The position numbers and the translations under genes were made by a program. A stretch of DNA of 64,000 bases, taken from the NCBI GenBank assembly GCA_000004985.1, contig GG738901.1. One strand, 5' to 3'. Positions 624 through 37,665 of the stretch are shown here, piece after piece. The first letter of the stretch is position 1. Each line of letters begins with the position of its first letter. A model generated the notes under the pieces. That model saw only the letters and a list, made by a program, of their open reading frames with translations, had not been told where the DNA came from and did no database searches. Source of the stretch: Naegleria gruberi. Taxonomy: Eukaryota.

Positions 624-3600
624 ATGTTGAACAATAAATCTGAGCGAAGTGGTGATGAAAAAGAGGAGGATCTTGTGATTCAGAATCCCTCTAACTGTAA
701 ATGTAATAATCACAACAATGGTAAGCAGCATCTTGAAGGGACAAATTTAATGCAACAACCACAACCACTGTTGGATGATGATGTGAATGATATTCTTCAA
801 TTATTAACAATAGAAAGTTGCAGTGGAGGTTGTAGCTTTGATTGTCTTAAATTCGAAGAGAAGGAAGCAGTCGAAGAGGATACCTGTAATCCAATGTCGC
901 AACAACATCTTCCTTCCGATATCAAATCGGAACCAATTCTCCTACTGCTTACTGATAAGAAGGCAACATCAACAATGGATCACAACGTAAGTTATCATCA
1001 AACATGTAAATTAACGTGCCATTTGGGCGATTTGACTAATTCAGAAGTCGTATGCATCTAACAAACAAGGCGACAATTTTCATCATGAAAAAAGAACAGA
1101 CAATATCATCAACAAGAAGAACAAGGCTTCCTCATCATTAGGCAGTGCTTTTAAAGAAGATTTTGTAAATTTTGTTTCAGAATCCACAAGTTCCTCTTAC
1201 ATTCCGCAACAGCCATTCACAACATTATATTCGAAAAGAATGAAGGACGAAGAGATGGTGGAGAATAATCAATCTACTGTTAATGAAGATGGAATCAAGA
1301 CATCATCTGAAGCTAAACCAACACAATTTAACCACTCCTCACATCATCAAAGGCCTCATCATATTAACAAGGGTCTCGGAGAAGAACAACAATACAAATT
1401 TCCTTCATCTATTACACCACTTTCACTGGCCAATATTCATGCCAATGCATCGACTAACTTACTGCTAACTTCATCAACATTATTTAATTCTTCAAGTGAA
1501 TCACATGGTGGTGGAACCATTTCGAGAAGCTCCTCCAATACTTCAATGGATAGCTCCTCCTATTCACTCTTGAATAATCACCATCATCTAACCACATCTT
1601 CCTCACCCTCTGATGGTTTTCACTCAACTCTAAAATCCCTAGAAAATGTTCTCCCTCCATTCTTTACTCCATGCGTGCCACCTCATGCATCATTCAATTA
1701 CTATTCAGAACATTATTGGGGAGAACATCCCTTATCACTAACCTCCTTCTCTCCAATTCTTCATTATGAAAAGAAGTCATCTCTAACGATTATTTGTCGA
1801 TACACACCACAACAAACTAGGAATTCTCCAAGAAGGGAGAGACCTTCCTCTCAAAAAGAATTAATAGAGAATGAGATTTATTGTCTGAAAGTTTCACTGG
1901 ACAAACCATCCATTCCAAAGCTGGAAAGGGATGCAGAAATTTCTCGATTCTTGACCAATGAATTTTCTCAAGTGTTGGATCCAGCACAACAGGTTATTGT
2001 CAGTACTAAGGCCTATTTGTCTGATTATTTTATTCTCGTGAGGGAGTTTATTGATTGTGTTTCGTTGAGATCATTTATTGATAGATCGAAAACATATGCT
2101 AGAGCAGAACCAATTACTGATGAGAATTTTGAAACCTTAACAGATGATACTGTAACACTTCTCAATGAAGAACAACGAGTGAAAGAAAACATTACAATAT
2201 TGGAAAGTAATTTAACACTTGCTATTTCTATTTGTATGAGTGTTGCTCAACTGCATCACTCAAGAGTTTGTCATGCTGACATTAGGCCAGAAAATATAAT
2301 TGTAGAAGGACCTAAATGCAATATAAGATTGATTGATTTTGGAAAGAGTACATTCCTCCCTTTGGAGCATCCATTTTTATATACCGATAAAATTATTGGT
2401 AGTCAAATGTATTGTGCTCCAGAGGCAACAGGAAAGATTCCAAAACCAATAGGTTTCCACACTGATATATATTCACTTGGATTTGTTCTCTTTGAGTTAT
2501 TTTCCAAAGAACATCCATTTACCAAGTTTAGGACATTAGATTTCGTATTTCAACATTTGACTCAACAGCCAGAGTCCTTGTTTCAAAATCTAGCGAGAAG
2601 GTCTTTTATATCAGCCAATGAAGGAAACCTATTCACAGCTGCTACTAAAGCAATTTCAAGACTAATTACCAAAGCAATTCAAAAATCTATTGAGAAACGT
2701 TATTTGAGTATTTTTGGATTGAAACGAGATTTGGTCTACATACAGAATGCTATTCAACTAGAAGATATGGAAGCTCTTGAAAATTTTCAAGCTGGTATGA
2801 ATGATGTTCAAACAACTTTATCCATACCTTATGGTGTATATGGTAGAGAGGAAATTTTCAAAAAATTGGAACTGAAACTTGAAAATATGATGGAATCTAG
2901 TGAGCCAACGATTGTCCTTCTGGGGGGCTATAGTGGCATAGGTAAATCATGTATTGTTAAGGAGTTTAGGACAAGAAGTAAAACAGCAATACAATTCTTT
3001 GAGGCAAAATACGATCAACATATGAATGTACCTTACTATGCCATTATTTCCATATGTAAACAAATTATTGGCGACGTTCTTGGAGAATCTGAATCAGTGA
3101 TTAAGGATTTCAGATTCCAACTTGGTACACTTATCAATTCAGATCAATTAGAAATGTTGAGTGATGCAATTCCTGACATGTCATATTTATTTACAACTAA
3201 TGCAACCAAAAAGCATACCTCCCCATCAATGGGAGATCAGAATGGAGAGCGTATGAAGCTCTTTTCACAAGGAAGTAAGTAATATTTTGAATTTAACATT
3301 ATAACAATATTATATTGCTCAGTTATTCATCTCTTTAGTGTTTATACTCATTTAAAGAAAAAGAGGTTATGCATTTTCTTGGATGACTTGCAATGGACTG
3401 ATTTTGATAGCATGAAGCTATTGAAGGAAATTCTTGGAACTGGTTCTTGTGATACTGTTCCTCTTTTAATTATTGGAGCATATAGAAATAACGAAGTGGG
3501 AAAGGACCATCCTCTATTTTACTTTTTAGAAAATCTCAAACTTAAAGTGAACATTGAAGAAATTGAAGTTGTTGAGTTGACAGAAGATCAATCTAACATG

Positions 3601-6600
3601 ATTGTCTCAGAGTCTTTAAGGAAAAATAGAGCTGAAACAGAAGAACTAACCAAAATACTCTTCTCTAGGACGAATGGAAACCCCTTCTTTTTAAAGCAGT
3701 TATTGGCTGGTTTATTTAAGGACGGATCTATTTATTTCGATACTCAAACAGATACTATTACATGGGATAAAAAGAAAATAGAAAATGCAGAATACTCTGA
3801 AAATGTTATTGACTATCTCCTTGGACATTTGGAAAAATTACCAAAACAAACACAAGATATTCTTGCATTTGCTTCTTGCTTTGGAAATAAGTTTTCCAAT
3901 GAAGACATGCTCCACCTACTCAATCAGCAACAAGAAGAAAAGATAGACTTGATGCAACTTAAAGAAAGATTGAACTATGCGGTGAAGGAGGGATGGATTT
4001 CAAATATCAATTCTGGTAATTTACGATTTAATCATGATAGACTCCAACAAGCTGCTTATGAATCACTGCCTTTGAATGAAAGGTTGAGAATTCACTATAC
4101 CTATGGTAAGCAGCTTCTCAAAAAAGCAGAAGAAGATGATTCTTTGGAGGAACGTTTATTTGATATAGTTGTACAGTTAAATCACAAACATAATGATCCT
4201 GCTTTCTTGGAGAATAGAGATGAGAGAAGATTACTCATTGACCTCAATAATAGAGCTGCAAAGAAGGCTTTGGAAACATCATCTACAGATAAAGCCATTG
4301 GCTTTGTTTATATTGCAAGGCAAATTCTAGAACACGAACCAGACTGTTGGAGTGAAGAAACTTATAAGTTGGCTTTTGAGAGTTTACTAATTGTTGGTAA
4401 TTGTAACTATTCTGTAAATATAGAATTGGCAACCTCTCTATTCATGGAAGCTATTCAAAAAGCTCAAAACAAGACAGATCTTTATGAGGCATGCAACCAT
4501 GGATTGATGGCCTATCTTTCACAAGGAAAATATGAAGATGTGTTTAAAATTTTGACTGATCATGTATTTACTACATATGAAGAGTTGAATTTCCTTACTC
4601 AGGAGCATACTGTTGAATCCTTGACAACATGGATACTTAACAAGATGAAATACATGAAAGAACATGTGCTCGTTAATTTTACTCAAAAATCTGACATTCT
4701 CAATTTGCCAGATATTGATGATTTGGAAAAGTGGCATCTTATTTGTTTGCTCACTCAATCCTGTCCTGCTGTTTTTCATATGAATAACTCACTCAGCAAA
4801 CACTACTTTATGATTATGATATTAATATCGTCTGATATAGTTTTAAATAATGGCATTACTCCTCTTTCCCCATTGTTAATTTCAGTCTTTGCATGGTCTT
4901 GGTGTAATTTTGAGTTTTATCCTCAGATGAACATGTTCTTAGAGGCAGGATTAGAGATGGAAAAGACTAGATTCAGGAATGAGCATGAATTGGCAAGTTG
5001 CACATTGATGAAGTTGATGAGTTATTACTTTTCGCCAACAATTAACCCTCTTGAGGTGTGGAATATATCCGAGGAAGCCTTCTTATTGTCTGTGAAATCA
5101 AAGAACAAACACTATGGCGGTTTCTCTATTCTGTGGTATCCATTCCATCACTTATTCTATAGCCACGGAGATGTAAAGACTTCTATTGGATTGAGCTTGA
5201 ATTCAATTGAGATTTTCAAGAGAAATGGAAATGTTATGTTGATGGATGCCAGTAAAATGATACTGGAATTGAAATATGTTCTTTCAGGAGATGTAGACCA
5301 TTACCTGCCAACGTATGTAAGCCAAGTGAAGGAATATCCATTCTTTAGACAAATGCACTACTCGTTCAAGGGAATTTCACTCTATTTCCAAAATGATATT
5401 GAAAAATCTTTCAAGTGTATGGAAAAATCGTATGATTTTAGAGAAGACTCTGTTGGTATGTGTTCAAGCTGGATTGATTTAATCTTCCTAGGTTTAATCT
5501 CAGCTATCTTTTTGAGAAGTGCTCAAGAAAAGATTGAAAAAGCCCAAGAAATACTGAAATATTCTATAGAAAGATTGGAAATGATTTCCCAAGCTAATTC
5601 TTCTGTTTTTCTTGCTCCTTTGGAGTTCATAAGAGCCGAGACATTGTACTCAGAATATTGTAGAACAGGTGTCGAAAATACTAGAAAAATCATTTCTCAC
5701 TACAGAAAGAGTTATATTATGGCTGAAAAGGAAAGAAACACCTTTTTAGCTAGGCTGATTAATTTGAGAACAGGAGAGTTTTACAACAGTCTAGGTATGG
5801 ATGATGGTATTAGTGGAAACTACTTCCTTAGAGCTATGGAATCTTTTGAACAGTTTGGTGCTTCCATCGTTGTTGATTATATTTTGGAGAATTATTCAGG
5901 TCACATCGATGGCTATTCATCATTTAGTAATAGAAATCCTGAACAAGTATTCTCTAACACTTCTCTATCTGATGAAACAACAGATCACTCTCTTGCTGGA
6001 GTAACAAAGAGCAGAATTTCTGAATCAACAGAATTGGATTTTAGAGAGATTTTCATTTCAATTCTGCCAATTCTTTCAGAACAAACGTTATCACCAAGAT
6101 GTTGTTTGATTTTGAAGAGAGATTCAACAGTTTATGTAGATGCCGAATTTAATGCAGACCTGAATTCTATTGAAGCACTTTCGTCTACCAAACAATTCGA
6201 AAATAGTGATTTGGACAAATTTTCAGATTTATTCCCTCTCAAGATGATTCACAGAACTCTAAGATCCAGAACAGAGCAACAACTCGTATGGAATGACAAT
6301 GAGAAAGAGTATTACTTTGTGAAGAATGTAGTGGCCTCTGCTTTATCTATTCCTATCATGAAGAAAAAGACAGTCATAGGTATGCTTTTTATTATTATTT
6401 TATTTATATTATTTAATGTATTAAGGTTGTATATACTTGGAAAATAAGGAAACGAAGGATGTATTCACAACTGAAAAAATTAACCTTGCCAAACTTATCA
6501 TCTCGATCAGTTTGGACAATGCTGGAATTTTCACATCTATTAACAAATCCTATGCTAGGTTTTTACCTGCTGAATTCTTAAAGTTGCTTGGAAAGAGTCA

Positions 6601-7423
6601 CGTAACTAAGGTAAGGTTGGGCGATGCAGTTTCTAGAGAAATGACAGTGCTCTTCAGTGATATTTATGGATTTACAGAGATTATGGAGGGACTTTCTGCA
6701 AAGGATGGCTTTGCTTTTATTAATCTACTATTGAAGAGTATTGCACCTCCAATTTCAAGAAACTCTGGATTTATTGACAAGTTTGTTGGTGATGGAATAT
6801 TGGCATTGTTTATTGAACCGCAAGGAGCTGTCACTGCAGCTTTAGAAATGATTTCAGAATTGGAAGTTTTCAATAGTAGAAATAATACCAATGTAAAGTT
6901 GGGAGTTGGTTTGCATCATGGTATTGTTCAACTTGGTACGATTGGATATGAGCAACGATTGGATGCTACTGTTATTTCAGATACTGTGAACACAGCTAGC
7001 AGATGTGAATCTCTCACAAGAACTTTTCATTCACATATTCTAGTTACTAAACCAGTTATGGATGCTGTTACAGTGCCACACAGTGTGATAAGTACCGAGT
7101 TGGGTAAATTCATGCTGAAAGGAAAACACATACCTCATCAAATTTACAATATCGCTTCTAAATCATGGAAAGGAAGTGGTAGTGCTAAAGAATTCGCTTT
7201 ACTAAGCAAAGTTATTGATCTCTTCTCCAGGAGTGAATTTACCGAATCATTTGCCCTCGCAGAAACAATTCTCAAGAATACAAAGAACAATACCATTATA
7301 GCTGCATGCAACATGTATAAGGAAGCATCAACATTATACGGATCAGTTGTTTTACCAAGTGAATGGCAAGGTGAAATTCGGTTGACCAAGGATGGAGAAG
7401 TCAGAGAGTACTTTTCAAAATAA
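624..7423 (+). CDS. Multidomain signalling protein of about 2212 aa: N-terminal Ser/Thr protein kinase, STAND/AAA_16 P-loop NTPase, long TPR-like helical region, C-terminal class III adenylyl/guanylyl cyclase. Exons 624..986, 1045..3278, 3339..6379, 6426..7423.
   Basis: Kinase catalytic loop 'HADIRPENI' and 'DFGKS'. Walker A 'GGYSGIGKS'. The AAA_16 box 'RLCIFLDDLQWTDFDS' is restored only after removing the 60-nt intron 3279..3338 (GTAAT...TCTCTTTAG). Cyclase motifs 'VLFSDIYGFTEIME', 'KFVGDGILALF', 'GVGLHHG', 'NTASRCESL'. Introns 987..1044 (GTAAGT..TTCAG), 3279..3338 and 6380..6425 (GTATGC..TTAAG) keep the frame; total CDS 6636 nt = 2212 codons. ORF-track pieces 624..1061, 1240..3282, 3379..6447 and 6437..7423 are joined by these introns. 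Confidence 0.72.
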
Positions 7424-7582: not shown

Positions 7583-10039
7583 ATGAAAAAACGACATTCA
7601 ACCTTTTCCACCACAATCAATCATCGAGATTTGATTAAATCATCTAATTTTAATTCATTATCTACTAGTAATATTCAATCATCATCATCACCAATATTGA
7701 GCACTACTTCTAGAAAAGGCTTCCGAGAACGACCACTCATCAAATTCATATTAAAACAACGTTCCAAACGATTGCAACAACAAGGCTCTAGTGAGTTTGC
7801 TGGTGCGGAAGTGGAAATTTTGAAGGCTTGTTGGAGAAAAATAGAGGAAGAGGAGATGAAGGACTATCGAGAAAATCTCTCGAATCGATTGGGGTTTTAT
7901 TTTGATGATGAGGAATTGTTGGCCATGTTCGGAAATCAATTGATGAAGGATGAAGAGGAACTACAGCAGAGGACGACAATGGATACTACCAACACTGAAC
8001 CAAGTTCGGCTGGTGGTGCTACTCTTGACAATTCTTCACTGAAGAGTGGTGACAGTGCTCGTTCATTGACAAGTTTCGGATCTGACTCGAAACTAAATTC
8101 GCCAATTAGTCCCAACCTCGACAAGAAGCATTTGCAGTCAACTTCATCGACCAAAAGCTCCACTTCATTTGCATCCTTCTCTGGTGCACCATCATCACTC
8201 ACACCAAGCCCAAACATTGAGGAGAACAAAAATCTTTCCTACCTCTACGATATTCATACTTTTCCTAGCAAGCTGAATCTGATACCAACCATGCATTATA
8301 ATGTGTTGGATGTTGTTGAGTTGTCCTCTGTACAGCAAATTGTAAATATAACAAGTCCTTCTTCGGAGATTGGGATACTTAAAGATTGTACAAATGATTC
8401 TTCTCCTACTGTAAATATTGAATCAACCACTTTTAGTCTCGAGATTTTAGATAGTTTTATTACTGTTGATTCTTTTGAAGATTTTTCAAATCCTTCATAT
8501 AATCCACTCAATATTAGACATTTATATTGTGATTATTGGTCCAACAAACTAGAATTCAAACAAAGGATCAGTAAATCTTCTCTTACTTCAAACAATAAGA
8601 AGGAAAATGAAAAATCAAAAAACTATATACCATTTGAAGAATTGGAAAAATGTAGAAATTGTACAGAACTCAAATTGAACAATAACAAGATTAGATCTCT
8701 AGATTCTAAACATTTTACCAATTTTGCACACTTGACAGAATTGAATCTATCTTCGAATAGAATGTCTAAAGCAAGACTGCCTGAGGATATTTTCTCACAT
8801 ATGCCACATTTGCAGAGGCTTTCTCTCGATTATATGGGTCTTAAGACTCTACCAAAATCAATTAACAAATTGGTAGAGCTTACCTACCTTTCACTTTCCT
8901 TTAACAAATTGAACACTTTCAACTTGCTACATGGAAAAGACAGACACTTGAATGATTTTTGGCCAAAATTGACCAATTTGGAGTACTTGAATTTGTCTGG
9001 AAATAGATTGAATAGATTTCCTTCAGAAATTTGTAATTGCAAATCATTGGAATTTTTGAGTTTGTCCAACAATAGAATAATTAACGAGATACCAAAGGAA
9101 ATTGAAAATCTCAAAAAATTAGCAATACTCTTCTTGAATGGAAACAAAGTTACTGCTCTTGATATTAATAGAAATTTGGAATTTTTAGAGAATTTGACCC
9201 ATTTGGAATTGGGTCACAATCCTAATATCCATGTGGTTCCACCTCCTGTTTACAATTTAACCAAATTAGAATCACTCTGTTTGAGCCATCTAACCATTAG
9301 TCATTTATCGGATGATATTGGAAAATTAAGAAATTTGACTCACTTGGATTTGTATGGCTCCAAACTAACTGGTCTTCCAAAGGGTATTTCACAGCTTATC
9401 AACCTTAGGAATTTGGATATGCGATATTGCAGAGGTATCAAGGAGTTCCCTATTGAATTGTTTGGTCAAAAAGTTTCAAGTAGCACTATCACTACTACCT
9501 CTCCAATGAAATCCCTTACTAGATTGAGTCTTAGCTATACAATGATAGAGAGCATTCCTGAGGATATTTCCTCTCTCCAGAGTTTACAAGCACTTTTGGT
9601 GAATGACTGTCCCTTGCTCGAAGAAATTAAGGGTATTGACAAGCTTGTCAATCTTGTAGAGTTTGACATCAGTCGTTGCATCTCCCTTGTTGAGCCTCCT
9701 TCTGATGTGTGTGAGAGAGGTCTTGCCCACATTAGAGGATATCTGAAAGAAAAGGACGATGGACCTTCTATTTTTTTAAAGTTTATTGGATCAGTATTTG
9801 GTGGAAATACCTCAAATAATTCCTCCACCAACAAGAAGAAACTACCTTCACCAATAGGCACAGAAAACAACCTCAAAGTGGAACACAATGAATTACTTGT
9901 TGCCTCACCAGTACCAAGCATTAATTCTGGAGATGATGATGGTGATAGTGATTCTGATGATGAGATTGGCGCATCTAAAAAGAAGAAACCAAGTCCAAGT
10001 GGCAGTACTGTCAAGTCATTATTTTCCTTTTGGAAATAA
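7583..10039 (+). CDS. Leucine-rich-repeat protein of 818 aa, with an S/T-rich N-terminus and an acidic C-terminus.
   Basis: Single long ORF. Tandem LxxLxLxxN repeats ('LTELNLSSNRMS', 'LEYLNLSGNRLNRFPSEI', 'LEFLSLSNNRIINEIPKEI', 'LTHLDLYGSKLTGLP'). ATG preceded by an A-run. Confidence 0.7.
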   Translation: MKKRHSTFSTTINHRDLIKSSNFNSLSTSNIQSSSSPILSTTSRKGFRERPLIKFILKQRSKRLQQQGSSEFAGAEVEILKACWRKIEEEEMKDYRENLSNRLGFYFDDEELLAMFGNQLMKDEEELQQRTTMDTTNTEPSSAGGATLDNSSLKSGDSARSLTSFGSDSKLNSPISPNLDKKHLQSTSSTKSSTSFASFSGAPSSLTPSPNIEENKNLSYLYDIHTFPSKLNLIPTMHYNVLDVVELSSVQQIVNITSPSSEIGILKDCTNDSSPTVNIESTTFSLEILDSFITVDSFEDFSNPSYNPLNIRHLYCDYWSNKLEFKQRISKSSLTSNNKKENEKSKNYIPFEELEKCRNCTELKLNNNKIRSLDSKHFTNFAHLTELNLSSNRMSKARLPEDIFSHMPHLQRLSLDYMGLKTLPKSINKLVELTYLSLSFNKLNTFNLLHGKDRHLNDFWPKLTNLEYLNLSGNRLNRFPSEICNCKSLEFLSLSNNRIINEIPKEIENLKKLAILFLNGNKVTALDINRNLEFLENLTHLELGHNPNIHVVPPPVYNLTKLESLCLSHLTISHLSDDIGKLRNLTHLDLYGSKLTGLPKGISQLINLRNLDMRYCRGIKEFPIELFGQKVSSSTITTTSPMKSLTRLSLSYTMIESIPEDISSLQSLQALLVNDCPLLEEIKGIDKLVNLVEFDISRCISLVEPPSDVCERGLAHIRGYLKEKDDGPSIFLKFIGSVFGGNTSNNSSTNKKKLPSPIGTENNLKVEHNELLVASPVPSINSGDDDGDSDSDDEIGASKKKKPSPSGSTVKSLFSFWK

Positions 10040-10137
10040 AGTGTTGAGTAAATAAAAACTGATGAAACATTTAGACATCACCAAATATAATGTCGTTTTT
10101 TCCCGTAAATGAGAAATATTTGCATTAAGAACAAGAT

Positions 10138-10209
10138 TCCCGTGTAGTCCAATGGCTAGGATACCTGGCTTTCACCCAGGAGGTCCGGGTTCAATTCCCG
10201 GCATGGGAG
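10138..10209 (+). tRNA. tRNA-Glu (anticodon UUC), 72 nt, no encoded CCA.
   Basis: Acceptor TCCCGTG / CATGGGA with one G-U. D-arm GTCCAATGGCTAGGAT. Anticodon stem CCTGG/CCAGG with loop CTTTCAC. T-arm CCGGGTTCAATTCCCGG. Followed by TCGTTTTTTATTTTT, a Pol III-type T-run. Confidence 0.85.
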
Positions 10210-10271
10210 AATCGTTTTTTATTTTTAAAAGTAATCTACAATGAAGTATTGTATTTTTTAAGCTTGATTCT

Positions 10272-11740: not shown

Positions 11741-14563
11741 TTAAAGGTCATCATCTGATTCAACCTCTTCGACTCCCTCCACTATTGGTTCTTCTTCTTC
11801 TACAATCATAGGGCCACTTTGATTGTCAACTCTGGCTTTGGTGAATTTGTAGAGTTTGTCCAAGAGTGAACGACCTTGATCCCACCAAGAAATATCAACC
11901 TCATGATAGGTGCCACGAAGTGGATTGATAACTCCAATATTCTTAATTTCCATTCCATCCAATCTAGCCATGGCTGCATAGCAGAGTAATTGAATAATCC
12001 ACTCAACTTCAATATCTTGGGATACCGAACATTTAATATCAATAATGGTCTCGCCATCAATGATGATATCTGCCTCTCCAGTAACATGTTTTCCATAACT
12101 GAGACTTCTATGGGTATTAACTGAGCTTTCAGTTTTTTCTACAATAAATGGAACAAAGTGCTCTTGTAAATTATTGAACAGTTCTGTATAGTTTGGAGCA
12201 ATGTCCTTAATAAAGTCAAACTTTTTCTTTAGATTGGTATTGCCAAGATAGAGCATTCTGGTTCTTCCCTCTTTAACAACTGCATCAAGTTTGGAAATTT
12301 CGAATACACTTTCTAGAATATCAATTGACTCATAATTTGGATTTGTAAAAATTCTGTAAGCTGTTTTTAAACTGTCTACATAACCGGGTGGGAAGGCATA
12401 TTCTGTCATTACTGGAATAACCTCGAATGAAAATTGTCCCTTCTCCAATATTTTCTCGAAAGATTCAATAATCTCAGTCATGACTATCTTTTCATAGCCA
12501 TCAGTAATAGATTTTAACAAAGCTTTTGGAGGTTTTCCATTTCTCATCAACTGCTTCAATTTCTTTGCATATCTATTAAAGACCTGGATACTGCCTGTAT
12601 TTAATACGATTGCCTCGTTAATGAAGAGTTCAGTGCATGTATGACTAAAACCTCCTCCATTAGGTATTTTCTCAGAAATCATTCTACAAAATAAAGTATC
12701 AATAAAGTTTCCAAAGTCTGTAAACATTTGATTTTCGTAAACCACGTCACAGTATGCAAAGTCTGTATCCACAATTTTGGTTTTCGTAAATTCGATTTGT
12801 GGCAAACATCCTTCTTCCTTGAGTATTGTCATGAGTTCTCCATCAATATTACGAACCATATTTGTTACGGTGTATGGATTAATAGATGAGTCGGATGCTG
12901 ATCTTGGCTGTTCTGAAATACGCAAGTCTGTGGGACTATGTAATCTGAATACGCTACGATCAATCTCTGTTATATAACTCAAACAAGTTGCTGTCTTGGG
13001 GAGAACAATGTGTAACTCATCCTTTGCTCTGGTAACAGCCACATATAATACACGTCTTAGTTCCGCATCATTATCACCTTTCCATTTATCATTTGATGAA
13101 TCCACCAAGAAAACAATATCCCACTCCAAACCTTTAGACTTGTGTATGGTTGATAGGCAAACTTTTCCAGTTGTTGTGTGTCTTTCCATTTCCTTTAAAG
13201 ATTTTGATTTTTCCATAATAGTAATATGTGGAATGAAGAATTTAGATAATTGTTCCTCTACCTTATAGAGACCATAATTTGTTGGAGAAAGGATTGCTAT
13301 TCTTTCTCTTGGCACTCCACGTTTCAAATATTCTGATATTTTCTTAGCAACATACAAACCCTGGTTATCATTTACAATGATTGGTTTAAGATTAGATTCT
13401 CTTGTGGTTGTCATTTCTTTTGGAATATTATCTGGATTATTTCTCAAAATTGCATTTGCCACTTGCAAAATTTCTGGCGTACTTCTATAATTTCTAGTCA
13501 GTGTTAACAGCTTAGAGTTTGGATATTTTGAGTGAAAATTCAAAATATGTTCCACACTGGATCCTCTCCATGAGTAAATGTTTTGCGAATCATCTCCTAC
13601 GGCAATTATCTTGCATCCTCTTTTGTGAAACTCTTCAAAAATCTCTGCTTGAAAATTATCAATATCTTGATACTCATCAATTATGAGATACTTTTTCTTT
13701 TTACAAATTTCATCCGCAATTTCTGGATAATTCTTCATTAAGTTCCTCAATCTATATCCATATTCAATCACACAAGCTTGAGAATCAAAATATTGCCAAT
13801 ATTTCTTCAATGTCTTGTAAGCAAATGCATCAATGGTTCCAATAGTAAATTTACTCTTAACTCCAATACTGGCAAGCTTTTCCTTCATATCATTTGCTGC
13901 CAATCTTGAAAATGTTGTCAACATGATCTGATGAGCTGGAATTTTCAAATACTTTATCATGTAAACAATTTTACAAATAATGGTTGTTGTCTTTCCACTT
14001 CCAGCGCAAGCCAACACTAACAAGTCATCATTCACATCTCCAAAAACAACTTGCTTTTGTTCTTCACTCAAATCAATCTGTACATCATCAATTGTAAATG
14101 TTTTCATAATTTCCTCTTCGGATGGAAAAACAATTTCCTTCTTCTTCCTTACTCTTTTTACAGGCTTTGAAATTTCCTCATCACCTCCAAAATTAATTTC
14201 CGGCATTAAACTAATTGCCTCATTACTCATAGCATTAATGATTTCTTCCTTTTCTTGAGGTTGGTGAGTAGAAAATAATTCCTTCACCTCATCATCTTGT
14301 TGCTTCAAAGTCTGTTTCCTTCTCGTAGCATTATTAATCAAAGATTGAGAAAAACATCTCCTCATCATTACATGATTCAATAAAGTAGAGTTATTGGTTT
14401 TCAACAAGGCTGATGAAGATCCTGTCGGGAATGATTTATTTCCACCATTAATTTTAATATGATTAATTATATTATTGTTATTACTATTTAAATGATGTAA
14501 AGTTGAAGTGGATGATAATGTATTCAAGCGATAGAGAAGTGAATTGTGCTTGATGTTGCGCAT
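11741..14563 (-). CDS. UvrD/PcrA-family SF1 DNA helicase of 940 aa, with an N-terminal extension and a ~300-aa C-terminal extra domain.
   Basis: Motif I 'ACAGSGKTTT'. Motif II 'LIIDEYQD'. Motif III 'GDDSQNIYSWRG'. Motif IV 'NYRSTPEIL'. Motif V 'TIHKSKGLEWDIVFLV'. Motif VI 'YVAVTRAKDEL'. The C-terminal 'GEADIIIDGETIIDIKCS' is weakly PD-(D/E)xK-like. Confidence 0.85.
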   Translation of the reverse strand: MRNIKHNSLLYRLNTLSSTSTLHHLNSNNNNIINHIKINGGNKSFPTGSSSALLKTNNSTLLNHVMMRRCFSQSLINNATRRKQTLKQQDDEVKELFSTHQPQEKEEIINAMSNEAISLMPEINFGGDEEISKPVKRVRKKKEIVFPSEEEIMKTFTIDDVQIDLSEEQKQVVFGDVNDDLLVLACAGSGKTTTIICKIVYMIKYLKIPAHQIMLTTFSRLAANDMKEKLASIGVKSKFTIGTIDAFAYKTLKKYWQYFDSQACVIEYGYRLRNLMKNYPEIADEICKKKKYLIIDEYQDIDNFQAEIFEEFHKRGCKIIAVGDDSQNIYSWRGSSVEHILNFHSKYPNSKLLTLTRNYRSTPEILQVANAILRNNPDNIPKEMTTTRESNLKPIIVNDNQGLYVAKKISEYLKRGVPRERIAILSPTNYGLYKVEEQLSKFFIPHITIMEKSKSLKEMERHTTTGKVCLSTIHKSKGLEWDIVFLVDSSNDKWKGDNDAELRRVLYVAVTRAKDELHIVLPKTATCLSYITEIDRSVFRLHSPTDLRISEQPRSASDSSINPYTVTNMVRNIDGELMTILKEEGCLPQIEFTKTKIVDTDFAYCDVVYENQMFTDFGNFIDTLFCRMISEKIPNGGGFSHTCTELFINEAIVLNTGSIQVFNRYAKKLKQLMRNGKPPKALLKSITDGYEKIVMTEIIESFEKILEKGQFSFEVIPVMTEYAFPPGYVDSLKTAYRIFTNPNYESIDILESVFEISKLDAVVKEGRTRMLYLGNTNLKKKFDFIKDIAPNYTELFNNLQEHFVPFIVEKTESSVNTHRSLSYGKHVTGEADIIIDGETIIDIKCSVSQDIEVEWIIQLLCYAAMARLDGMEIKNIGVINPLRGTYHEVDISWWDQGRSLLDKLYKFTKARVDNQSGPMIVEEEEPIVEGVEEVESDDDL

Positions 14564-32943: not shown

Positions 32944-33023
32944 TGCAGAAGGTGGGATTTGAACCCACGAAGCTTGCGCAGTAGAACTTGAGTCTACCCC
33001 CTTTGACCACTCGGGAACCCTGC
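32944..33023 (-). tRNA. tRNA-Leu (anticodon CAA), class II with a long variable arm and no intron.
   Basis: Reverse complement reads GCAGGGTTCCCGAGTGGTCAAAGGGGGTAGACTCAAGTTCTACTGCGCAAGCTTCGTGGGTTCAAATCCCACCTTCTGCA. Anticodon stem GTAGA/TCTAC with loop CTCAAGT. T-arm GTGGGTTCAAATCCCAC. The acceptor has 2 G-U pairs and 1 mismatch, so the ends are uncertain by 1-2 nt. ORF 32824..33030 is a translation artefact of this tRNA. Confidence 0.65.
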
Positions 33024-34647: not shown

Positions 34648-37600
34648 CTACTGTTTGAGGGAGTTTTTCAATCCTTGCATGTCTATCAAATACCACAAAT
34701 CTTGTTGGTGCTTGATGAGAATATTATCTTGTTGATTGAGTTTTTGAAGGAATTTAACGTTGTGTTTCAATCGATAGGAGGCATGAGCAATCTGGTGAAC
34801 ATCTAACTCGATGGCTGCAGTTGCAATTTCCTCATCATTTTGGAGTTTATGTTCAAGGTGAGCGAAAAGTTTTGGATTTTTCTTGACTGCTTGAAGAATA
34901 AATTCTCTGTCAGTTCTTAATTGATATGAGGCATGTAATAATGACTCTGGATGTGATGTAGTAGCAGCCAAAACAATTTCCTTATCATTTCTGAGATCTT
35001 CATCAAGTGCAGTCAATGCTTCTCCTGAATTGGTGACAGCTGCCATTACAACTTGTCTGTCAATCTTTAAATCATCAGATGCTCTATTAAGAATATTCCC
35101 CTTATTCATTACTGCTTTGATAACAATTTCCTTGTCAGATTGGAAATGAGGCACAGCATCAAGTAGTTGACCGTTCTTTTCAATATTCTCCAAAATAAAA
35201 TCTCGATCCATTCTAAGTTCCTTTGATAAAAAGTAAAATGATGTACATGTTGGAATAGCTGCTGAAACTACTTGTCTATCATTTTGTAAAGGTTTTGATG
35301 CAAACTTGATAGCATCCCCTGTCTGTTTTACAGCAACAAGCACAATTTCCTTATCATTTCTAAAATCCAATGAGACATATCTCAAATTCATTCCATTCTT
35401 GCTCATGGCATTCAAAACTATCTCCTTATTGTTTCTTAAATTTTCTGGAATCCAAAAAAGATTTGCTATGTGTTTGGATATTTCTAGTATAAATCCATAA
35501 TCATTTCTCAAACGATCTGAAATATGAGGGAGACAGTCTAATGTTGGCTCTTCATTTGATTTCATAGCATGAAGTACCAATTCCTTATCATCTTTCAACT
35601 CCTCTGATGCAAGTACCAATAGATGTGAATTATTTGTAACAACATTAAACATAAATTCGAAATCACTTCTGAAAGAAACGTCACAACCAAAGATGCAATA
35701 GCCATCATTTTTGGAAGCCAATAAAACTATTTCTCTATCTCCACTAAAGTGATCCAAAACAACTCCATATTTAGCAGATAATAAAGCAAATTCTCTATCT
35801 CTGGAAAATTCATTTCTAAAGAATGAAAGACTACTAGGATGTTTTCTTAGTACTTCTTCCAAAAAATCCATATCCATTCTCCAATCAAGTTTGACCAAAA
35901 CAGGGTTATAGTTGCTTATTGCCAAAAAAGATAATGCCTTATCAGATCTGAGACGCTTAGAGGCCAATTCAATGAGTTTACCATCTCTTTTTACGCATTC
36001 GTACACTATTTCTCTGTCATCCGAGTATAGCTCTGGAATATAGTTTGGTAAATTTTTCGAATATTCTAAAACCAACTCCCTATCACGCTTCATTTCAGAG
36101 GATTCTAGTCTAAATCCATACGTTTTTACTTGTGTAAGATACAGCTTTCTATCATTCAACATTGATTCAGGAATTTCAGGATGCCCAAAATAATTAAAAG
36201 CCTCCTCCAATATTTCTCTATCATTTTGGAAAGCTATAGGAATGCAACTCACATATCCTCCACATCTAATGGCTTTTAGCACAAAATCTCTATCATTCTG
36301 GAATTTTTCATCGACTGAATTTATATTTCCACCATACTGAGATATTGCTTTGATTACAATATACTTATCATTAATCAGTTCATCAGATGTGGCATATTCT
36401 AAAATGTCTGCTCCATAGTGAAGAGCTTTTAAAACACATTCCCTGTCGTTCTTCAAATCCTCTCCTGCAAAGTATAACGAACGAGGGTTACTTTCAATTA
36501 ATTTCATTATTAAATCCTTATCATTCAACAATTCAGTATTTCGAACATAATCAATTACTGTCTGATCTATTTCCAAAAGCTCCAAACAGAATTCCTTGTC
36601 CAATAATAACTCCTCAGAAACTGTTCGCATTATAGAGAATGCAGAATAGTCAATAAGCGCAGTCTTGACAATTTCTTTGTCTTTTTTTGAGTTTTTTCCA
36701 ACCATTTCCATTGCATCAAATTCACGCATATACAAAGTAAGTAAAACTATGTCTCTATCATCCTTTAGCTCTGGTGAAATATGTTTGAAAGTGGAGCTAT
36801 TTGTTCTAATTTGTTCCATAATAAATTGTTTGTCATTTTTTAAACATTCTGGAGCGTACTGAAATAGTTCACTATTCAACTTAATAGCCATTCGCATGAA
36901 TTCTACATCATTTTTCAAATCTGAAGAAATCACTGGCTGATAATTATTTCGTTTGATAGCCTCCAATATAATCTCCTTGTCGTTTTGTAATTCTGGACAA
37001 GTAAAACTAAAACAGTTAGGATATCTTTTGATTGTTTCCAAAACAATATTTCTGTCGTTTCTAAATTGATCTGGTAAATGTTGGAATCCATATGGACATA
37101 TTTCGAGTGCTTTTTTAACAATTTCATCATCATTCCTCAATTCTTCAGAAGCAAACTCAAGTACGCTTGTTCCCTTTGCTGACACAAGTGTCATAACAAA
37201 ATCTCTGTCTTTCAAGAGATCGGGATCAACGTACTTCAGTGCATGCTCATGCTTACAGGCAGCAAGATAAACAATTTCTCTATCGGCTCGTAATTTCTCC
37301 GAAGCATACTGAATGGATTGTCCACTGCTCATCACAGCAATTTTAACCAGAGTCTTGTCATTCTTTAATTCATCAGGTATTCTACTCAAATAATCTCCAT
37401 CCTTTCGTAAATATTTACATAGAATTAATCTATTACTCTCCAATAGTGGTGGTGAAGCTCTCCTGTGCCAAATTCTACCAAAGGAAGTCATTTCTGTTTG
37501 TATCCTCTCATACAGTTCATCATTGTCATGAATAACTTTCTCCCGAGCTTCTTGGAATTGGCTCATCAAGGAAAATGATTTTATTTGTCCGTACATATCA

Positions 37601-37665
37601 ATTTCTTCATCTGTGACACAGACAACTACCACATCACTCAGTGAAATCATTTTTTTAATAAACAA
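34648..37665 (-). CDS. Large DUF4116-repeat protein of 1005 aa.
   Basis: About 18 tandem ~50-aa repeats with 'L(K/R)ND(K/R)E(I/F)VL.A(V/I)...G..L.(Y/F)AS'. A7 run before the ATG. Confidence 0.75.
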   Translation of the reverse strand: MFIKKMISLSDVVVVCVTDEEIDMYGQIKSFSLMSQFQEAREKVIHDNDELYERIQTEMTSFGRIWHRRASPPLLESNRLILCKYLRKDGDYLSRIPDELKNDKTLVKIAVMSSGQSIQYASEKLRADREIVYLAACKHEHALKYVDPDLLKDRDFVMTLVSAKGTSVLEFASEELRNDDEIVKKALEICPYGFQHLPDQFRNDRNIVLETIKRYPNCFSFTCPELQNDKEIILEAIKRNNYQPVISSDLKNDVEFMRMAIKLNSELFQYAPECLKNDKQFIMEQIRTNSSTFKHISPELKDDRDIVLLTLYMREFDAMEMVGKNSKKDKEIVKTALIDYSAFSIMRTVSEELLLDKEFCLELLEIDQTVIDYVRNTELLNDKDLIMKLIESNPRSLYFAGEDLKNDRECVLKALHYGADILEYATSDELINDKYIVIKAISQYGGNINSVDEKFQNDRDFVLKAIRCGGYVSCIPIAFQNDREILEEAFNYFGHPEIPESMLNDRKLYLTQVKTYGFRLESSEMKRDRELVLEYSKNLPNYIPELYSDDREIVYECVKRDGKLIELASKRLRSDKALSFLAISNYNPVLVKLDWRMDMDFLEEVLRKHPSSLSFFRNEFSRDREFALLSAKYGVVLDHFSGDREIVLLASKNDGYCIFGCDVSFRSDFEFMFNVVTNNSHLLVLASEELKDDKELVLHAMKSNEEPTLDCLPHISDRLRNDYGFILEISKHIANLFWIPENLRNNKEIVLNAMSKNGMNLRYVSLDFRNDKEIVLVAVKQTGDAIKFASKPLQNDRQVVSAAIPTCTSFYFLSKELRMDRDFILENIEKNGQLLDAVPHFQSDKEIVIKAVMNKGNILNRASDDLKIDRQVVMAAVTNSGEALTALDEDLRNDKEIVLAATTSHPESLLHASYQLRTDREFILQAVKKNPKLFAHLEHKLQNDEEIATAAIELDVHQIAHASYRLKHNVKFLQKLNQQDNILIKHQQDLWYLIDMQGLKNSLKQ

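What the first reader, a model, noticed from the sequence alone, without database searches (positions are those of the whole stretch)
624..7423. Kinase / STAND-NTPase / TPR / adenylyl-guanylyl cyclase megaprotein assembled from four exons
After removing three short introns the four ORF fragments form one 2212-codon CDS. Domain order is protein kinase (HADIRPEN/DFG), AAA_16-type P-loop NTPase, ~900 aa of TPR-like helices, then a class III nucleotidyl cyclase. The second intron sits inside the AAA_16 signature 'LVLFLDDLQWAD', seen here as 'RLCIFLDDLQWTD' only after splicing. Kinase-AAA_16-TPR is a typical bacterial STAND architecture (PknK / MalT-like). Mammalian soluble adenylyl cyclase has cyclase then P-loop+TPR in the opposite order. 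A eukaryotic protein with kinase input and cyclase output bracketing a STAND switch looks like an NLR-like sensor that would emit cAMP/cGMP. It may have been acquired from bacteria and then gained introns.
Basis: partly seen in the sequence, partly recalled or inferred. Interest (0 to 1): 0.7.

Follow-up and report, generated by a model that had tools for sequence, protein, structure and literature searches.

The report
Kinase–STAND–GAF–adenylyl cyclase gene of Naegleria
This is a real, already annotated four-exon Naegleria gruberi gene for a giant signalling protein (protein kinase, ATP-driven switch, helical repeats, GAF, cAMP-making cyclase); the same layout is common in bacteria, so it is an uncharacterised member of a known kind rather than a new kind of sensor.

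Summary
The window is Naegleria gruberi NEG-M. The four-exon gene at 624-7423 is real and public as XP_002671953.1 ('serine/threonine protein kinase', 2148 aa).

It missed a GAF domain directly before the cyclase.

Intron 3 is as stated. Intron 2 is 3275-3322, not 3279-3338. The intron 1 acceptor and the start codon remain open.

All six catalytic residues of a homodimeric class IIIb adenylyl cyclase are present (D, K, D, T, N, R). Walker A and B are intact. The kinase keeps its catalytic Asp, Asn and DFG but has a divergent N-lobe.

The scaffold is the cyanobacterial 'HstK / dual protein kinase' type, also seen in fungal group X histidine kinases, with a cyclase replacing the histidine kinase. 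That exact architecture exists as single ORFs in Nostoc, Microcoleus, Myxococcales, Chloroflexaceae, Acidimicrobiales and Coxiellaceae, and was noted in Arthrospira in 2010.

Naegleria has a small paralog family. Two unidentified eukaryote contigs carry intronless relatives, and all of these form one clade.

Bacterial ancestry is plausible. An NLR-like immune role is unsupported. Interest is modest.

The parts
624..986 (+). Exon 1: low-complexity N-terminus. The start codon is ATG 624 (reader) or ATG 750 (public model XP_002671953.1).
   Evidence: ORF and GTAAGT donor at 987. The public model begins MQQPQPLL, which is nt 750. No homology support: the N. lovaniensis alignment starts at residue 318.
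987..1119 (+). Intron 1. The donor at 987 is agreed. The acceptor is either 1044 (reader, 58 nt, with ACTAAT just upstream of the AG) or 1119 (public model, 133 nt).
   Evidence: Both choices keep the frame. Exon 2's frame is open from 1036 with no ATG before 1240. Unresolved without RNA data.
1120..3274 (+). Exon 2 (possibly starting at 1045): Ser/Asn-rich linker, protein kinase domain, and the first half of AAA_16 including Walker A.
1744..2781 (+). Hanks-type protein kinase domain (residues about 355-700 of the 2215-aa model). HAD D533 at 2278-2280, N538, DFG at 2335-2343, APE at 2416-2424. Candidate beta3 Lys K403 at 1888-1890. No Gly-rich loop, and a roughly 30-aa insert.
   Evidence: Pfam Pkinase 1.4e-22, matching the C-lobe only. 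Best PDB matches are S. aureus and M. tuberculosis PknB. Colinear alignment with bacterial HKDIKPxN / SPEQTGR family members. Coordinates.
2836..3474 (+). AAA_16 STAND NTPase core, interrupted by intron 2. Walker A GYSGIGKS at 2926-2949 (K755). Walker B DD at 3382-3387 (D885, D886).
   Evidence: Pfam AAA_16 1e-22. Motifs conserved across 10 homologs and invariant in alignment A1. Coordinates.
3275..3322 (+). Intron 2 (48 nt, GTAAGT..CAG). The position is shared with the N. lovaniensis ortholog.
3323..6379 (+). Exon 3: Walker B half of the NTPase, winged-helix region, helical solenoid, and most of the GAF domain.
   Evidence: AlphaFold2 model with mean pLDDT 86.6.
4072..5934 (+). All-alpha TPR-like solenoid (residues about 1115-1735), the presumed STAND sensor arm.
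   Evidence: DSSP of the model shows helix pairs only. Foldseek top hit is 6mfv_A, 'STAND protein with a TPR sensor domain' (E 1.5e-5), followed by Ski3, APC and Tom70 TPR proteins. No Pfam TPR hit.
5992..6556 (+). GAF domain (residues about 1755-1927), interrupted by intron 3. It ends in a long helix that runs into the cyclase linker. No NKFDE cNMP-binding motif is seen by eye.
   Evidence: Pfam GAF is sub-threshold here (E 0.014) but passes in the N. lovaniensis paralogs and the Nostoc homolog. Alpha/beta fold in the model. Motif 'IPIMKKKTVIGCIYLEN' aligns with the family consensus 'CxPIIxQxxLxGxLYLENN'.
6380..6425 (+).
   Evidence: Gapless alignment across the junction to N. lovaniensis: 'IPIMKKKTVIG|CIYLENKE' against 'IPIIRDKSVLGCVYLENRE'. 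The public model agrees.
6426..7423 (+). Exon 4: end of GAF, linker, cyclase, C-terminal helical tail, and the stop codon TAA at 7421-7423.
   Evidence: AlphaFold2 model with pLDDT 90.6.
6557..6589 (+). Linker or 'handle' motif RFLPAEFLKLL between the GAF helix and the cyclase (cyclase-transducer-like).
   Evidence: R, F, P, F and L of this motif are invariant in the seven-sequence alignment A2, and the Arg is nearly invariant in A3. Helix 48-54 of the exon 4 model. The Foldseek alignment to OaPAC and bPAC includes the helix and handle that precede the cyclase.
6626..7159 (+). Class III nucleotidyl cyclase catalytic domain (residues 1951-2128). D1962 (6659-6661), K2002 (6779-6781), D2006 (6791-6793), T2065 (6968-6970), N2072 (6989-6991), R2076 (7001-7003).
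   Evidence: Pfam PF00211 3.2e-15. PDB sequence hits bPAC, OaPAC, CyaB and CyaC at 1e-17 to 1e-14. Fold match to CyaB 3r5g with TM 0.82. Residue conservation in 79 subfamily members. Coordinates.
7184..7420 (+). C-terminal three-helix tail plus a short strand, with the motif 'LPSEWQGEIRLTKDG'. It is conserved in N. lovaniensis and in P0002, a homolog on a contig of uncertain origin.
   Evidence: Model helices 253-304, pLDDT above 90. Alignment with P0001 and P0002 ('PDGWDGVYTMLTK').

Best explanation
The locus is one expressed-type Naegleria gruberi gene (XP_002671953.1). It encodes a cytosolic protein of about 2150-2215 aa, with no signal or membrane domain detected by Pfam. The scaffold is the bacterial 'HstK / dual protein kinase' type: Hanks-type kinase, AAA_16 STAND NTPase, winged helix, TPR-like solenoid, GAF. 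Its output domain is a class IIIb-type adenylyl cyclase instead of a histidine kinase.

Proposed mechanism (inferred, not shown):
1. The STAND NTPase with its helical sensor arm acts as a nucleotide-dependent oligomerisation switch.
2. The GAF domain and its C-terminal helix pass the resulting change in dimer geometry through the conserved RFLPxxFL 'handle' to the cyclase.
3. The cyclase must homodimerise to form two symmetric active sites (D1962/D2006 bind metals, K2002/T2065 bind adenine, N2072/R2076 stabilise the transition state).
4. cAMP synthesis is thereby switched on or off.

The kinase domain keeps the catalytic Asp, Asn and DFG. It either autophosphorylates and regulates the switch, or it is a second output.

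The gene belongs to a small Naegleria paralog family. Together with relatives in unidentified eukaryotes it forms one clade, most simply derived from a bacterial gene that already had the whole architecture. Introns were acquired afterwards.
For: Gene and model:
- The neighbouring ORF is exactly XP_002671954.1 of N. gruberi.
- The public 2148-aa model P0290 has four exons and is identical to my model except for the start codon and the intron 1 acceptor.
- Orthology with N. lovaniensis rests on 49% identity over residues 318 to the end and on conserved synteny: this gene, then an LRR gene, then a UvrD helicase.

Domains:
- Pfam hits.
- Walker A and B motifs.
- The exon 3 structural model: NTPase, winged helix, helical solenoid, GAF. 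Its best PDB match is the STAND-TPR protein 6mfv.
- The exon 4 model matches homodimeric adenylyl cyclases OaPAC, bPAC, CyaB and CyaC, including the preceding helix and handle.
- The six catalytic residues are present and match the subfamily consensus.

Family:
- Colinear full-length homology to bacterial kinase-AAA_16-GAF-HK and kinase-AAA_16-GAF-cyclase proteins.
- 40 of the 80 best GTDB loci carry kinase plus AAA_16 about 4.3 kb upstream of the cyclase on the same strand.
- Single ORFs of 1762-1796 aa in Nostoc punctiforme NIES-2108, a Coxiellaceae MAG and a Myxococcales MAG. Pfam confirms the architecture for the first two.
- Named examples are Enhygromyxa salina WP_181233219.1, Robiginitalea WP_445384918.1 and Ca. 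Parabeggiatoa RKZ89883.1.
- The Arthrospira genome paper describes NIES39_A07100 as HstK-like with the HK replaced by an adenylate cyclase (PMC2853384).

Eukaryotic clade:
- Naegleria paralogs.
- Intronless homologs on eukaryote-type contigs L005 and L006.
- The split separating these sequences from 117 others has 100% bootstrap support on the scaffold NJ tree, and 80% on the cyclase NJ tree when P0020 is included.
Against: - No biochemical or expression data exist for any member of the cyclase-output family that I could find.
- The oligomerisation-switch mechanism is extrapolated from other STAND proteins and from PAC cyclases.
- The kinase N-lobe is very divergent. There is no Gly-rich loop, HAD replaces HRD/HKD, Arg replaces the catalytic-loop Lys, and the beta3 Lys assignment is weak. 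The kinase may be inactive.
- GAF is below the Pfam threshold in this protein.
- Substrate specificity (ATP) is inferred from two residues only. UniProt's automatic name for the N. lovaniensis homologs is 'Guanylate cyclase'.
- The trees are NJ and unrooted, and the eukaryotic branches are long. They show a separate clade, not nesting inside bacteria.
- Exon 1, the start codon and the intron 1 acceptor lack support.
Confidence: 0.7

Rival explanations
1. One reading: an NLR-like innate-immune or conflict sensor that detects a non-self ligand through its TPR arm and emits cAMP or cGMP as an alarm signal.
For: - STAND NTPase plus TPR-like sensor arm.
- Lineage-specific paralog expansion in Naegleria.
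- The cyclase domain is distantly similar to Pycsar PycC defence cyclases, and the kinase to PD-T4-6, Stk2 and mad6 defence kinases.
Against: - The NTPase is AAA_16/MalT-type. NB-ARC and nSTAND6 score below their thresholds.
- No PADLOC model hits the STAND/TPR/GAF part. The kinase and cyclase hits are generic domain homology, and the Nostoc homolog gets the same ones.
- According to PMC2176072, expression of the characterised bacterial relatives in Anabaena depends on the nitrogen source (HstK) or is induced by iron deprivation (Pkn40/41).
- The substrate residues K and T are the ordinary adenylyl cyclase type.
Confidence: 0.12
2. The kinase domain is a pseudokinase that serves only as a regulatory or dimerisation module, like the kinase-homology domain of metazoan receptor guanylyl cyclases. 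The cyclase is the sole catalytic output. This is a variant of the best explanation rather than an alternative to it.
For: - Pfam matches only the C-lobe (profile positions 102-252).
- No Gly-rich loop, HAD instead of HRD/HKD, DIRPEN instead of DIKPxN, and APEATGK instead of the family's SPEQTGR.
- The N-lobe alignment to PknB scores only 4.8 bits.
Against: - The catalytic Asp (D533), Asn (N538), DFG and APE are retained, and they are conserved in N. lovaniensis.
- A plausible beta3 Lys ('YCLK' / 'YCVK') and alphaC Glu are present.
- Arg at the D+2 position also occurs in active Src-type tyrosine kinases (own knowledge).
Confidence: 0.35
3. The locus holds two genes (kinase-STAND and GAF-cyclase), as in the split models of the second N. 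gruberi copy (EFC46194.1 / EFC46195.1) and of N. fowleri (FDP41_008422 / FDP41_008423).
For: Those split annotations exist in public records.
Against: - Exon 3 is one uninterrupted 1018-codon frame running from the NTPase through the solenoid into GAF. It spans the whole region where the other copy is split: P0145 ends at exon 3 residue 261 and P0140 starts at residue 498.
- The public model for this locus is a single gene.
- Four N. lovaniensis paralogs and many bacterial homologs are single proteins.
- The split models are more simply annotation artefacts.
Confidence: 0.04
4. The output is a guanylyl cyclase, as the automatic UniProt names say, or a catalytically dead pseudo-cyclase.
For: - UniProt names the N. 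lovaniensis homologs 'Guanylate cyclase'.
- One N. lovaniensis paralog (P0144) has Gly in place of the first metal-binding Asp. Degenerate copies therefore exist in the family.
Against: - This protein has D, K, D, T, N, R, identical to the consensus of 79 subfamily members.
- Lys and Thr occupy the purine-specifying positions, as in the solved adenylyl cyclases bPAC, OaPAC, CyaB and CyaC that are its best matches.
- It does not have the Glu/Cys pair of guanylyl cyclases described in PMC1262709.
Confidence: 0.08
5. The gene is bacterial contamination or a very recent, unassimilated insertion in the assembly.
For: The closest non-eukaryotic relatives are bacterial.
Against: - Three spliceosomal-type GT..AG introns.
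- GC content of 33-36%, the same as the whole window.
- A Ser/Asn/His-rich eukaryotic N-terminal extension.
- Flanked by eukaryotic genes, with synteny to N. lovaniensis.
- Only 20-30% identity to bacterial proteins.
Confidence: 0.01

Closest known systems
Bacterial Pkinase-AAA_16-GAF-adenylyl cyclase proteins: Arthrospira platensis NIES39_A07100 (PMC2853384), the Nostoc punctiforme NIES-2108 ORF L028:3627-8987, Enhygromyxa salina WP_181233219.1, Robiginitalea WP_445384918.1, Ca. Parabeggiatoa RKZ89883.1
   Same: - Whole domain order and colinear homology from kinase to cyclase.
- The same RF(V/L)PxxFL linker.
- In most members, the same cyclase subtype with D-K-D-T-N-R.
- Supported.
   Different: - These are bacterial single ORFs of about 1700-1800 aa with no introns and no low-complexity N-terminus.
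- Identity to the Naegleria protein is only 20-30% overall and about 40% in the cyclase.
- Their kinases have the canonical HKDIKPxN / SPEQTGR motifs.
- The Arthrospira protein also has a PAS domain.
- None has been characterised functionally, as far as I could find.
HstK family, or 'dual protein kinases', of cyanobacteria (Anabaena Alr2258 HstK, Pkn40/41). NCBI calls them 'trifunctional serine/threonine-protein kinase/ATP-binding protein/sensor histidine kinase' (e.g. Archangium violaceum, P0004). Fungal group X hybrid histidine kinases (S/TKr-GAF-HK) belong here too.
   Same: Kinase-AAA_16-helical-GAF scaffold, homologous residue for residue. Literature.
   Different: - The output is HisKA/HATPase (with or without REC) rather than a class III cyclase, so the signal leaves by phosphorelay rather than by cAMP.
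- For the fungal group X kinases only the family description was read. No fungal sequence was compared here.
Mammalian soluble adenylyl cyclase (ADCY10)
   Same: A cytosolic class IIIb-type cyclase joined in one polypeptide to a P-loop STAND-like NTPase and TPR-like helices. The NTPase/TPR part rests on own knowledge of Leipe et al. 2004 and on sAC reviews, and was not tested here. Thr occupies the substrate position.
   Different: - The order is reversed: C1-C2 first, then the NTPase and TPR.
- sAC has two cyclase domains forming a pseudo-heterodimer, against one homodimerising domain here.
- sAC has no kinase and no GAF.
- Its cyclase matches this one only weakly (E about 7e-4, against 1e-17 for bPAC).
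Mycobacterial cyclase-AAA_16-TPR (-LuxR/BTAD) proteins (Rv0386 type; M. seoulense P0015 and P0016), and M. tuberculosis PknK (kinase-AAA_16-TPR)
   Same: A MalT/AAA_16-type STAND module fused to a class III cyclase (Rv0386 type) or to a Hanks kinase (PknK). P0015 and P0016 were hit at E about 1e-9.
   Different: - Each carries only one of the two enzymatic domains.
- In the Rv0386 type the cyclase is N-terminal.
- They have a DNA-binding output and no GAF.
- The PknK and Rv0386 architectures are from own knowledge.
Photoactivated adenylyl cyclases bPAC and OaPAC
   Same: These are the best solved matches for the cyclase, by sequence and by fold, and the match includes the helix and 'handle' that feed the sensor signal into a homodimeric cyclase.
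   Different: The sensor is a small BLUF domain. There is no kinase, STAND NTPase or GAF.
TOMM system kinase/cyclase fusion protein (TIGR03903)
   Same: It contains kinase, cyclase and AAA_16/TPR-like regions. There are partial hits to the kinase and NTPase parts.
   Different: The scores of 46-48 bits fall far below the cut-off of 705.75. The domain order differs (kinase-cyclase-NTPase), and the protein here is not a member.

Membership tests
HstK-type kinase-AAA_16-GAF signalling scaffold | N-terminal Hanks-type kinase with the family motifs (HKDIKPxNI, DFG, SPEQTGRMNR, DxRTDxYSLG; degenerate Gly loop) | tested here: inconclusive
   The domain is present and colinear. Retained: DFG, D, N and 'TDIYSLG'. 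Changed: HADIRPEN and APEATGKIPKP replace the family motifs, and there is a 30-aa insert.
HstK-type kinase-AAA_16-GAF signalling scaffold | AAA_16 NTPase with LYGRE, Walker A GxSGxGKS, Walker B FLDDLQWAD, and GNPFF motifs directly after the kinase | tested here: met
   VYGREE, GYSGIGKS, IFLDDLQWTD and GNPFF are all present and aligned.
HstK-type kinase-AAA_16-GAF signalling scaffold | Long helical region followed by a GAF domain ending in 'LYLENN...FT...SIxNAxLY' | tested here: met
   Model: helical residues 250-870, GAF residues 906-1018. 'CIYLENKETKDVFT...SISLDNAGIF' aligns with the consensus. Pfam GAF is sub-threshold in this protein (E 0.014) but above threshold in the paralogs.
HstK-type kinase-AAA_16-GAF signalling scaffold | Histidine kinase (HisKA/HATPase_c) output | tested here: not met
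   No HisKA or HATPase hit. The output is PF00211. The protein therefore belongs to the cyclase-output branch of the scaffold family, not to HstK proper.
Class III nucleotidyl cyclase, class IIIb-like adenylyl cyclase | PF00211 catalytic fold | tested here: met
   56.6 bits against a gathering score of 21.9. PDB hits at 1e-17. Foldseek match to CyaB with TM 0.82 and rmsd 2.1 A.
Class III nucleotidyl cyclase, class IIIb-like adenylyl cyclase | Two metal-binding Asp, substrate-specifying Lys, Thr in place of Asp (the IIIb hallmark), and transition-state Asn and Arg, all in one chain (homodimeric type) | tested here: met
   D1962, K2002, D2006, T2065, N2072 and R2076.
Class III nucleotidyl cyclase, class IIIb-like adenylyl cyclase | Homodimerisation, cAMP formation, bicarbonate response | not testable with these tools
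   This needs an enzyme assay and SEC-MALS.
STAND NTPases (MalT / AAA_16 clade) | P-loop NTPase, helical and winged-helix domains, and a C-terminal repeat sensor arm | tested here: met
   AAA_16 1e-22. The model shows the NTPase C-half, beta-hairpin (winged-helix-like) elements and a solenoid. Top PDB fold hit is the STAND-TPR protein 6mfv (E 1.5e-5).
STAND NTPases (MalT / AAA_16 clade) | Ligand- and ATP-dependent oligomerisation | not testable with these tools
   Inferred only.
NLR (NACHT or NB-ARC STAND) immune receptors | NACHT or NB-ARC NTPase domain | tested here: not met
   NB-ARC scores 17.1 bits against a cut-off of 23.5. There is no NACHT hit. No PADLOC model matches the NTPase/TPR part.
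Mammalian-type soluble adenylyl cyclase (ADCY10) | N-terminal tandem C1-C2 cyclase domains followed by the NTPase/TPR region | tested here: not met
   There is a single cyclase domain at the C-terminus. The match to ADCY10 is weak (E 7e-4).
TOMM kinase/cyclase fusion (TIGR03903) | Whole-protein score at or above 705.75 bits | tested here: not met
   46.3 and 48.1 bits.

The most novel reading that the evidence does not exclude
Naegleria and at least two unidentified AT-rich eukaryotes share a eukaryote-specific clade of STAND-gated adenylyl cyclases. The clade would descend from a single bacterial gene that already had the kinase-STAND-GAF-cyclase layout. In these proteins an ATP-driven oligomerisation switch, possibly tuned by an active non-RD kinase, would directly control cAMP synthesis. 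This would be a second, independent marriage of a STAND NTPase with a class III cyclase in eukaryotes, alongside sAC. It would also be a tractable model for how such a switch regulates a cyclase.
Probability: 0.35. Interest if true: 0.5.

Novelty: new member of a known kind. Interest (0 to 1): 0.3.

Why it matters
- Naegleria carries one of the largest cyclase repertoires known. The pangenome paper reports at least 81 cyclases (PMC9928731), and almost none has an assigned input signal.
- This protein shows that part of that repertoire reuses a complete bacterial signalling scaffold in which a STAND NTPase and a GAF domain sit upstream of the cyclase. That gives a concrete, testable regulatory hypothesis.
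- It could also serve as a comparison for the poorly understood NTPase/TPR region of mammalian sAC.
- Practical outcome: the intron 2 boundary is fixed, and several public gene models appear to be wrongly split. These are the second N. gruberi copy EFC46194.1/EFC46195.1 and N. fowleri FDP41_008422/FDP41_008423.
- The finding is not a new kind of system. The architecture was noted in cyanobacteria in 2010 and is widespread in bacteria.

Tried and rejected
Exon 3 alone was used instead.
- The word-indexed protein search missed the gene's own public model and, with exon 4 as query, even the 60%-identical N. lovaniensis ortholog. I first suspected the gene was unannotated. The full HMMER search and cluster look-up showed it is annotated as XP_002671953.1.
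- An exact look-up of the neighbouring gene's contig found nothing.
- Membership of TOMM_kin_cyc and the other NCBIfam kinase families was rejected because scores are far below the cut-offs.
- A PADLOC scan gave only generic kinase and PycC domain hits.
- No other copy of the gene lies in the window.
- No RNA family or tRNA overlaps the locus. Minus-strand ORFs inside it are 97 aa or shorter, and none was examined further.
- The AFDB Foldseek library was unavailable, so the eukaryotic distribution could not be surveyed by fold.
- The organism behind L005 could not be identified. Its GTPBP1-like neighbour has no close named relative.
- Literature searches on Naegleria together with sAC, and on the Pfam architecture names, found no paper about the eukaryotic proteins. 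The Cell 2010 genome paper is not held in the library.

Full report
**Source and reality of the gene**

The window is AT-rich (33-37% GC throughout). The ORF next to the finding (7583-10039) is residue-for-residue the Naegleria gruberi NEG-M protein XP_002671954.1, so the window is N. gruberi nuclear DNA.

ORFs of 680, 1022 and 328 codons in 35% GC DNA are far beyond chance.

A N. lovaniensis protein (XP_044545988.1, 1990 aa) aligns at 49% identity from residue 318 to the C-terminus. Its locus has the same neighbours, an LRR gene and then a UvrD-type helicase. It is therefore the ortholog.

**Gene model**

- **Intron 3 (6380-6425).** Confirmed by a gapless alignment across the junction.
- **Intron 2.** Using the GTAAGT donor at 3275 and the CAG acceptor at 3322 (48 nt) yields 'FSQGIIHLFSVYTHLKKKRLCIFLDD'.
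- **Public model.** A full HMMER search and a cluster look-up showed that the gene is already public as XP_002671953.1 / EFC39209.1, 'serine/threonine protein kinase', 2148 aa. It lies on the same scaffold as the LRR gene. It starts at ATG 750 and joins exon 1 (same donor, 986/987) to a later acceptor at 1119/1120.
- **What stays open.** The first 317 residues or so are low-complexity and unconserved, so neither the start codon nor the intron 1 acceptor can be decided without RNA data.
- **The 'RLCIFLDDLQWTD' motif.** It is not created by splicing. It lies 17 codons inside exon 3, in a frame open from 3283. The intron simply separates Walker A from Walker B.

**Domains**

- **Pfam.** Pkinase (E 1.4e-22, C-lobe only), AAA_16 (1e-22), a sub-threshold GAF (0.014) and Guanylate_cyc (3.2e-15).
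- **Exon 3 model.** AlphaFold2 with 40 homologs gave mean pLDDT 86.6. It shows the second half of the NTPase with winged-helix-like elements, an all-helical solenoid of about 620 residues, a disordered linker and a GAF fold.
- **Exon 3 fold matches.** The best PDB match is 6mfv, a 'STAND protein with a TPR sensor domain', followed by Ski3, APC and Tom70 TPR proteins. 'STAND + TPR-like' is therefore supported structurally, although no Pfam TPR model hits.
- **Exon 4 model.** pLDDT is 90.6. It shows a long helix, a short 'handle' helix (RFLPAEFLKLL), the cyclase fold and a three-helix tail.
- **Exon 4 fold matches.** It matches the homodimeric adenylyl cyclases OaPAC, bPAC, P. aeruginosa CyaB (TM 0.82) and Spirulina CyaC. 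For the PACs the match includes the helix and handle that carry the sensor signal.

**Catalytic competence**

- **Cyclase.** All six canonical residues are present: D1962, K2002, D2006, T2065, N2072, R2076. They are identical to the consensus of 79 members of this cyclase subfamily (77/79 D, 71/79 K, 79/79 D, 70/79 T, 79/79 N, 78/79 R). Lys and Thr at the purine-specifying positions predict an adenylyl cyclase of the class IIIb type, not a guanylyl cyclase.
- **NTPase.** Walker A (GYSGIGKS) and Walker B (IFLDD) are intact.
- **Kinase.** It retains the catalytic Asp and Asn (HADIRPEN), DFG and APE, and has a plausible beta3 Lys. It lacks a Gly-rich loop, carries a 30-residue insert, and deviates from the family's HKDIKPxN and SPEQTGR motifs. 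Whether it is active is open.

**What family it is**

The whole kinase-AAA_16-helical-GAF module is colinear with a very large bacterial family. Exon 3 alone matches 24203 cluster representatives at E<=1e-3 and 3297 at E<=1e-30.

In my local classification of the returned sequences (the best 150 plus four cluster members), 56 carry a kinase plus a histidine kinase and 21 carry a kinase plus a cyclase.

The histidine-kinase form is the cyanobacterial HstK or 'dual protein kinase' family. Fungal group X hybrid histidine kinases are described with the same S/TKr-GAF N-terminus.

A scan of one genome per bacterial species found 593 relatives of the GAF-linker-cyclase segment. Of the 80 best loci, 40 have the kinase and AAA_16 about 4.3 kb upstream on the same strand. 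These include Nostoc, Anabaena, Microcoleus, Spirulina, Chloroflexaceae, Myxococcales, Bradymonadia, Acidimicrobiales, Leptospirales and Coxiellaceae.

Three of these loci were checked and are single ORFs of 1762-1796 aa. Pfam confirms Pkinase-AAA_16-GAF-Guanylate_cyc for the two that were scanned.

Two different cyclase subtypes occur on this scaffold: the Naegleria type, and a 'KIKTIGDAYM / YDIWGD' type. Outputs have therefore been swapped repeatedly.

**Eukaryotic distribution and origin**

- **N. lovaniensis.** It has at least four full-length paralogs.
- **N. fowleri.** It has an ortholog annotated as two adjacent genes.
- **N. gruberi.** It has a second copy, 91-97% identical, on another scaffold, also split into two models.
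- **Other eukaryotes.** Two metagenomic or SRA contigs carry intronless homologs. They have 27-28% GC and eukaryotic neighbours (GNT-I, GTPBP1-like, NRDE-2, WD40, Ank, a retroelement integrase). The homologs are 43-52% identical to the Naegleria protein in the GAF-end and cyclase segment.

In an NJ tree of the scaffold (1438 columns, 126 sequences), Naegleria plus these eukaryote-like sequences are separated from all 117 others with 100% bootstrap support. The cyclase domain gives the same grouping, plus one short metagenomic fragment, at 80%.

The annotated N. lovaniensis ortholog has six introns. Only the one at residue 612 coincides with an N. gruberi intron.

Together this fits a single acquisition of an already assembled bacterial gene followed by intron gain. 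My trees are unrooted NJ trees with long eukaryotic branches, so they do not prove the direction.

**Mechanism**

Shown:
- the domain order;
- intact catalytic motifs;
- a continuous helix from GAF into a conserved handle and the cyclase;
- a homodimer-type active-site composition.

Inferred:
- the STAND NTPase with its sensor arm acts as a nucleotide-dependent oligomerisation switch;
- the GAF helix and handle transmit this to the obligately dimeric cyclase, as the coiled coil and handle do in PACs;
- the output is cAMP;
- the kinase either regulates the switch or is a second output.

**NLR-like immune reading**

This is not supported. The NTPase is AAA_16 rather than NACHT or NB-ARC. No defence-system model hits the STAND part. 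Expression of the characterised cyanobacterial relatives responds to nitrogen source or iron deprivation.

**Comparison with sAC**

The link to sAC is an analogy of parts, not membership. The order is reversed, there is a single cyclase domain, and the sequence match is weak.

**Verdict**

The gene is already annotated, and its architecture is a known bacterial type. The eukaryotic clade and its biochemistry are uncharacterised. I rate it a new member of a known kind, of modest interest.

Noticed in passing
not in window; proteins P0145 (EFC46194.1, 911 aa) and P0140 (EFC46195.1, 854 aa) on another N. gruberi scaffold: A second copy of this gene, 91-97% identical, is annotated as two adjacent genes ('kinase domain-containing protein, partial' and 'soluble adenylate/guanylate cyclase'). 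About 236 residues of the solenoid are unaccounted for between them. It may be a diverged allele or a recent duplicate, and the split is probably an annotation error.
   Followed up: partly
not in window; N. fowleri FDP41_008422 (P0143, 1619 aa) and FDP41_008423 (P0292, 611 aa): The N. fowleri relative is likewise split into a kinase-AAA_16 model and a cyclase model at adjacent locus tags. This is probably one gene.
   Followed up: no
not in window; N. lovaniensis paralog P0144 (XP_044547802.1): This paralog has Gly in place of the first metal-binding Asp ('VVFAGIYDLT') and a one-residue deletion next to the second Asp. It is either a pseudo-cyclase or a partner for heterodimers with active paralogs.
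   Followed up: partly
L005:8001-14339 and L006:8001-13463: Two unidentified eukaryote-type contigs (27-28% GC) carry intronless homologs of 2112 and 1820 aa with the same architecture. One of them is 2.66 Mb long. The organisms are unknown: the GTPBP1-like neighbour on L005 has no close named relative.
   Followed up: partly
L003:8001-13154 and L003:13151-18304: A bacterial-type contig carries two tandem, overlapping 1717-aa kinase-AAA_16-GAF-cyclase genes. Their cyclase is a different, class IIIa-like subtype (KIKTIGDAYM / YDIWGD). The same scaffold has therefore captured cyclases more than once.
   Followed up: partly
window 7184-7420: The cyclase is followed by a confidently modelled three-helix tail and a 'P-x-x-W-x-G-E/V' motif. 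The tail is shared with N. lovaniensis and with the homolog P0002, and many stand-alone cyclases of this subfamily cover about 85-92% of exon 4. Its function is unknown.
   Followed up: partly
window 7583-10039 (+) versus L004:12417-14705 (-): The neighbouring LRR gene is conserved next to the cyclase gene in N. lovaniensis but in the opposite orientation. This indicates a local inversion within otherwise conserved synteny (cyclase gene, LRR gene, UvrD-like helicase at window 11741-14563 on the minus strand).
   Followed up: partly
window 10137-10210 (+) and 32944-33023 (-): tRNA-Glu(TTC) and tRNA-Leu(CAA) genes. These are the only Rfam or ARAGORN hits in the window.
   Followed up: yes
window 34648-37665 (-), 52827-54887 (+), 54924-57110 (-), 46559-48154 (-): Other large ORFs in the window are repeat proteins:
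- a protein with 19 DUF4116 repeats (E 1e-184);
- a Sel1-repeat protein;
- an NHL-repeat plus BTB protein;
- a teneurin-like EGF/NHL protein.
   Followed up: no
L004:6001-12398 (N. lovaniensis ortholog): The annotated ortholog has six short introns. Two of them sit inside catalytic motifs: one in Walker A ('GYSGI|GKS') and one in the cyclase ('DKIL|GDG'). Only the intron at residue 612 is shared with N. gruberi.
   Followed up: partly
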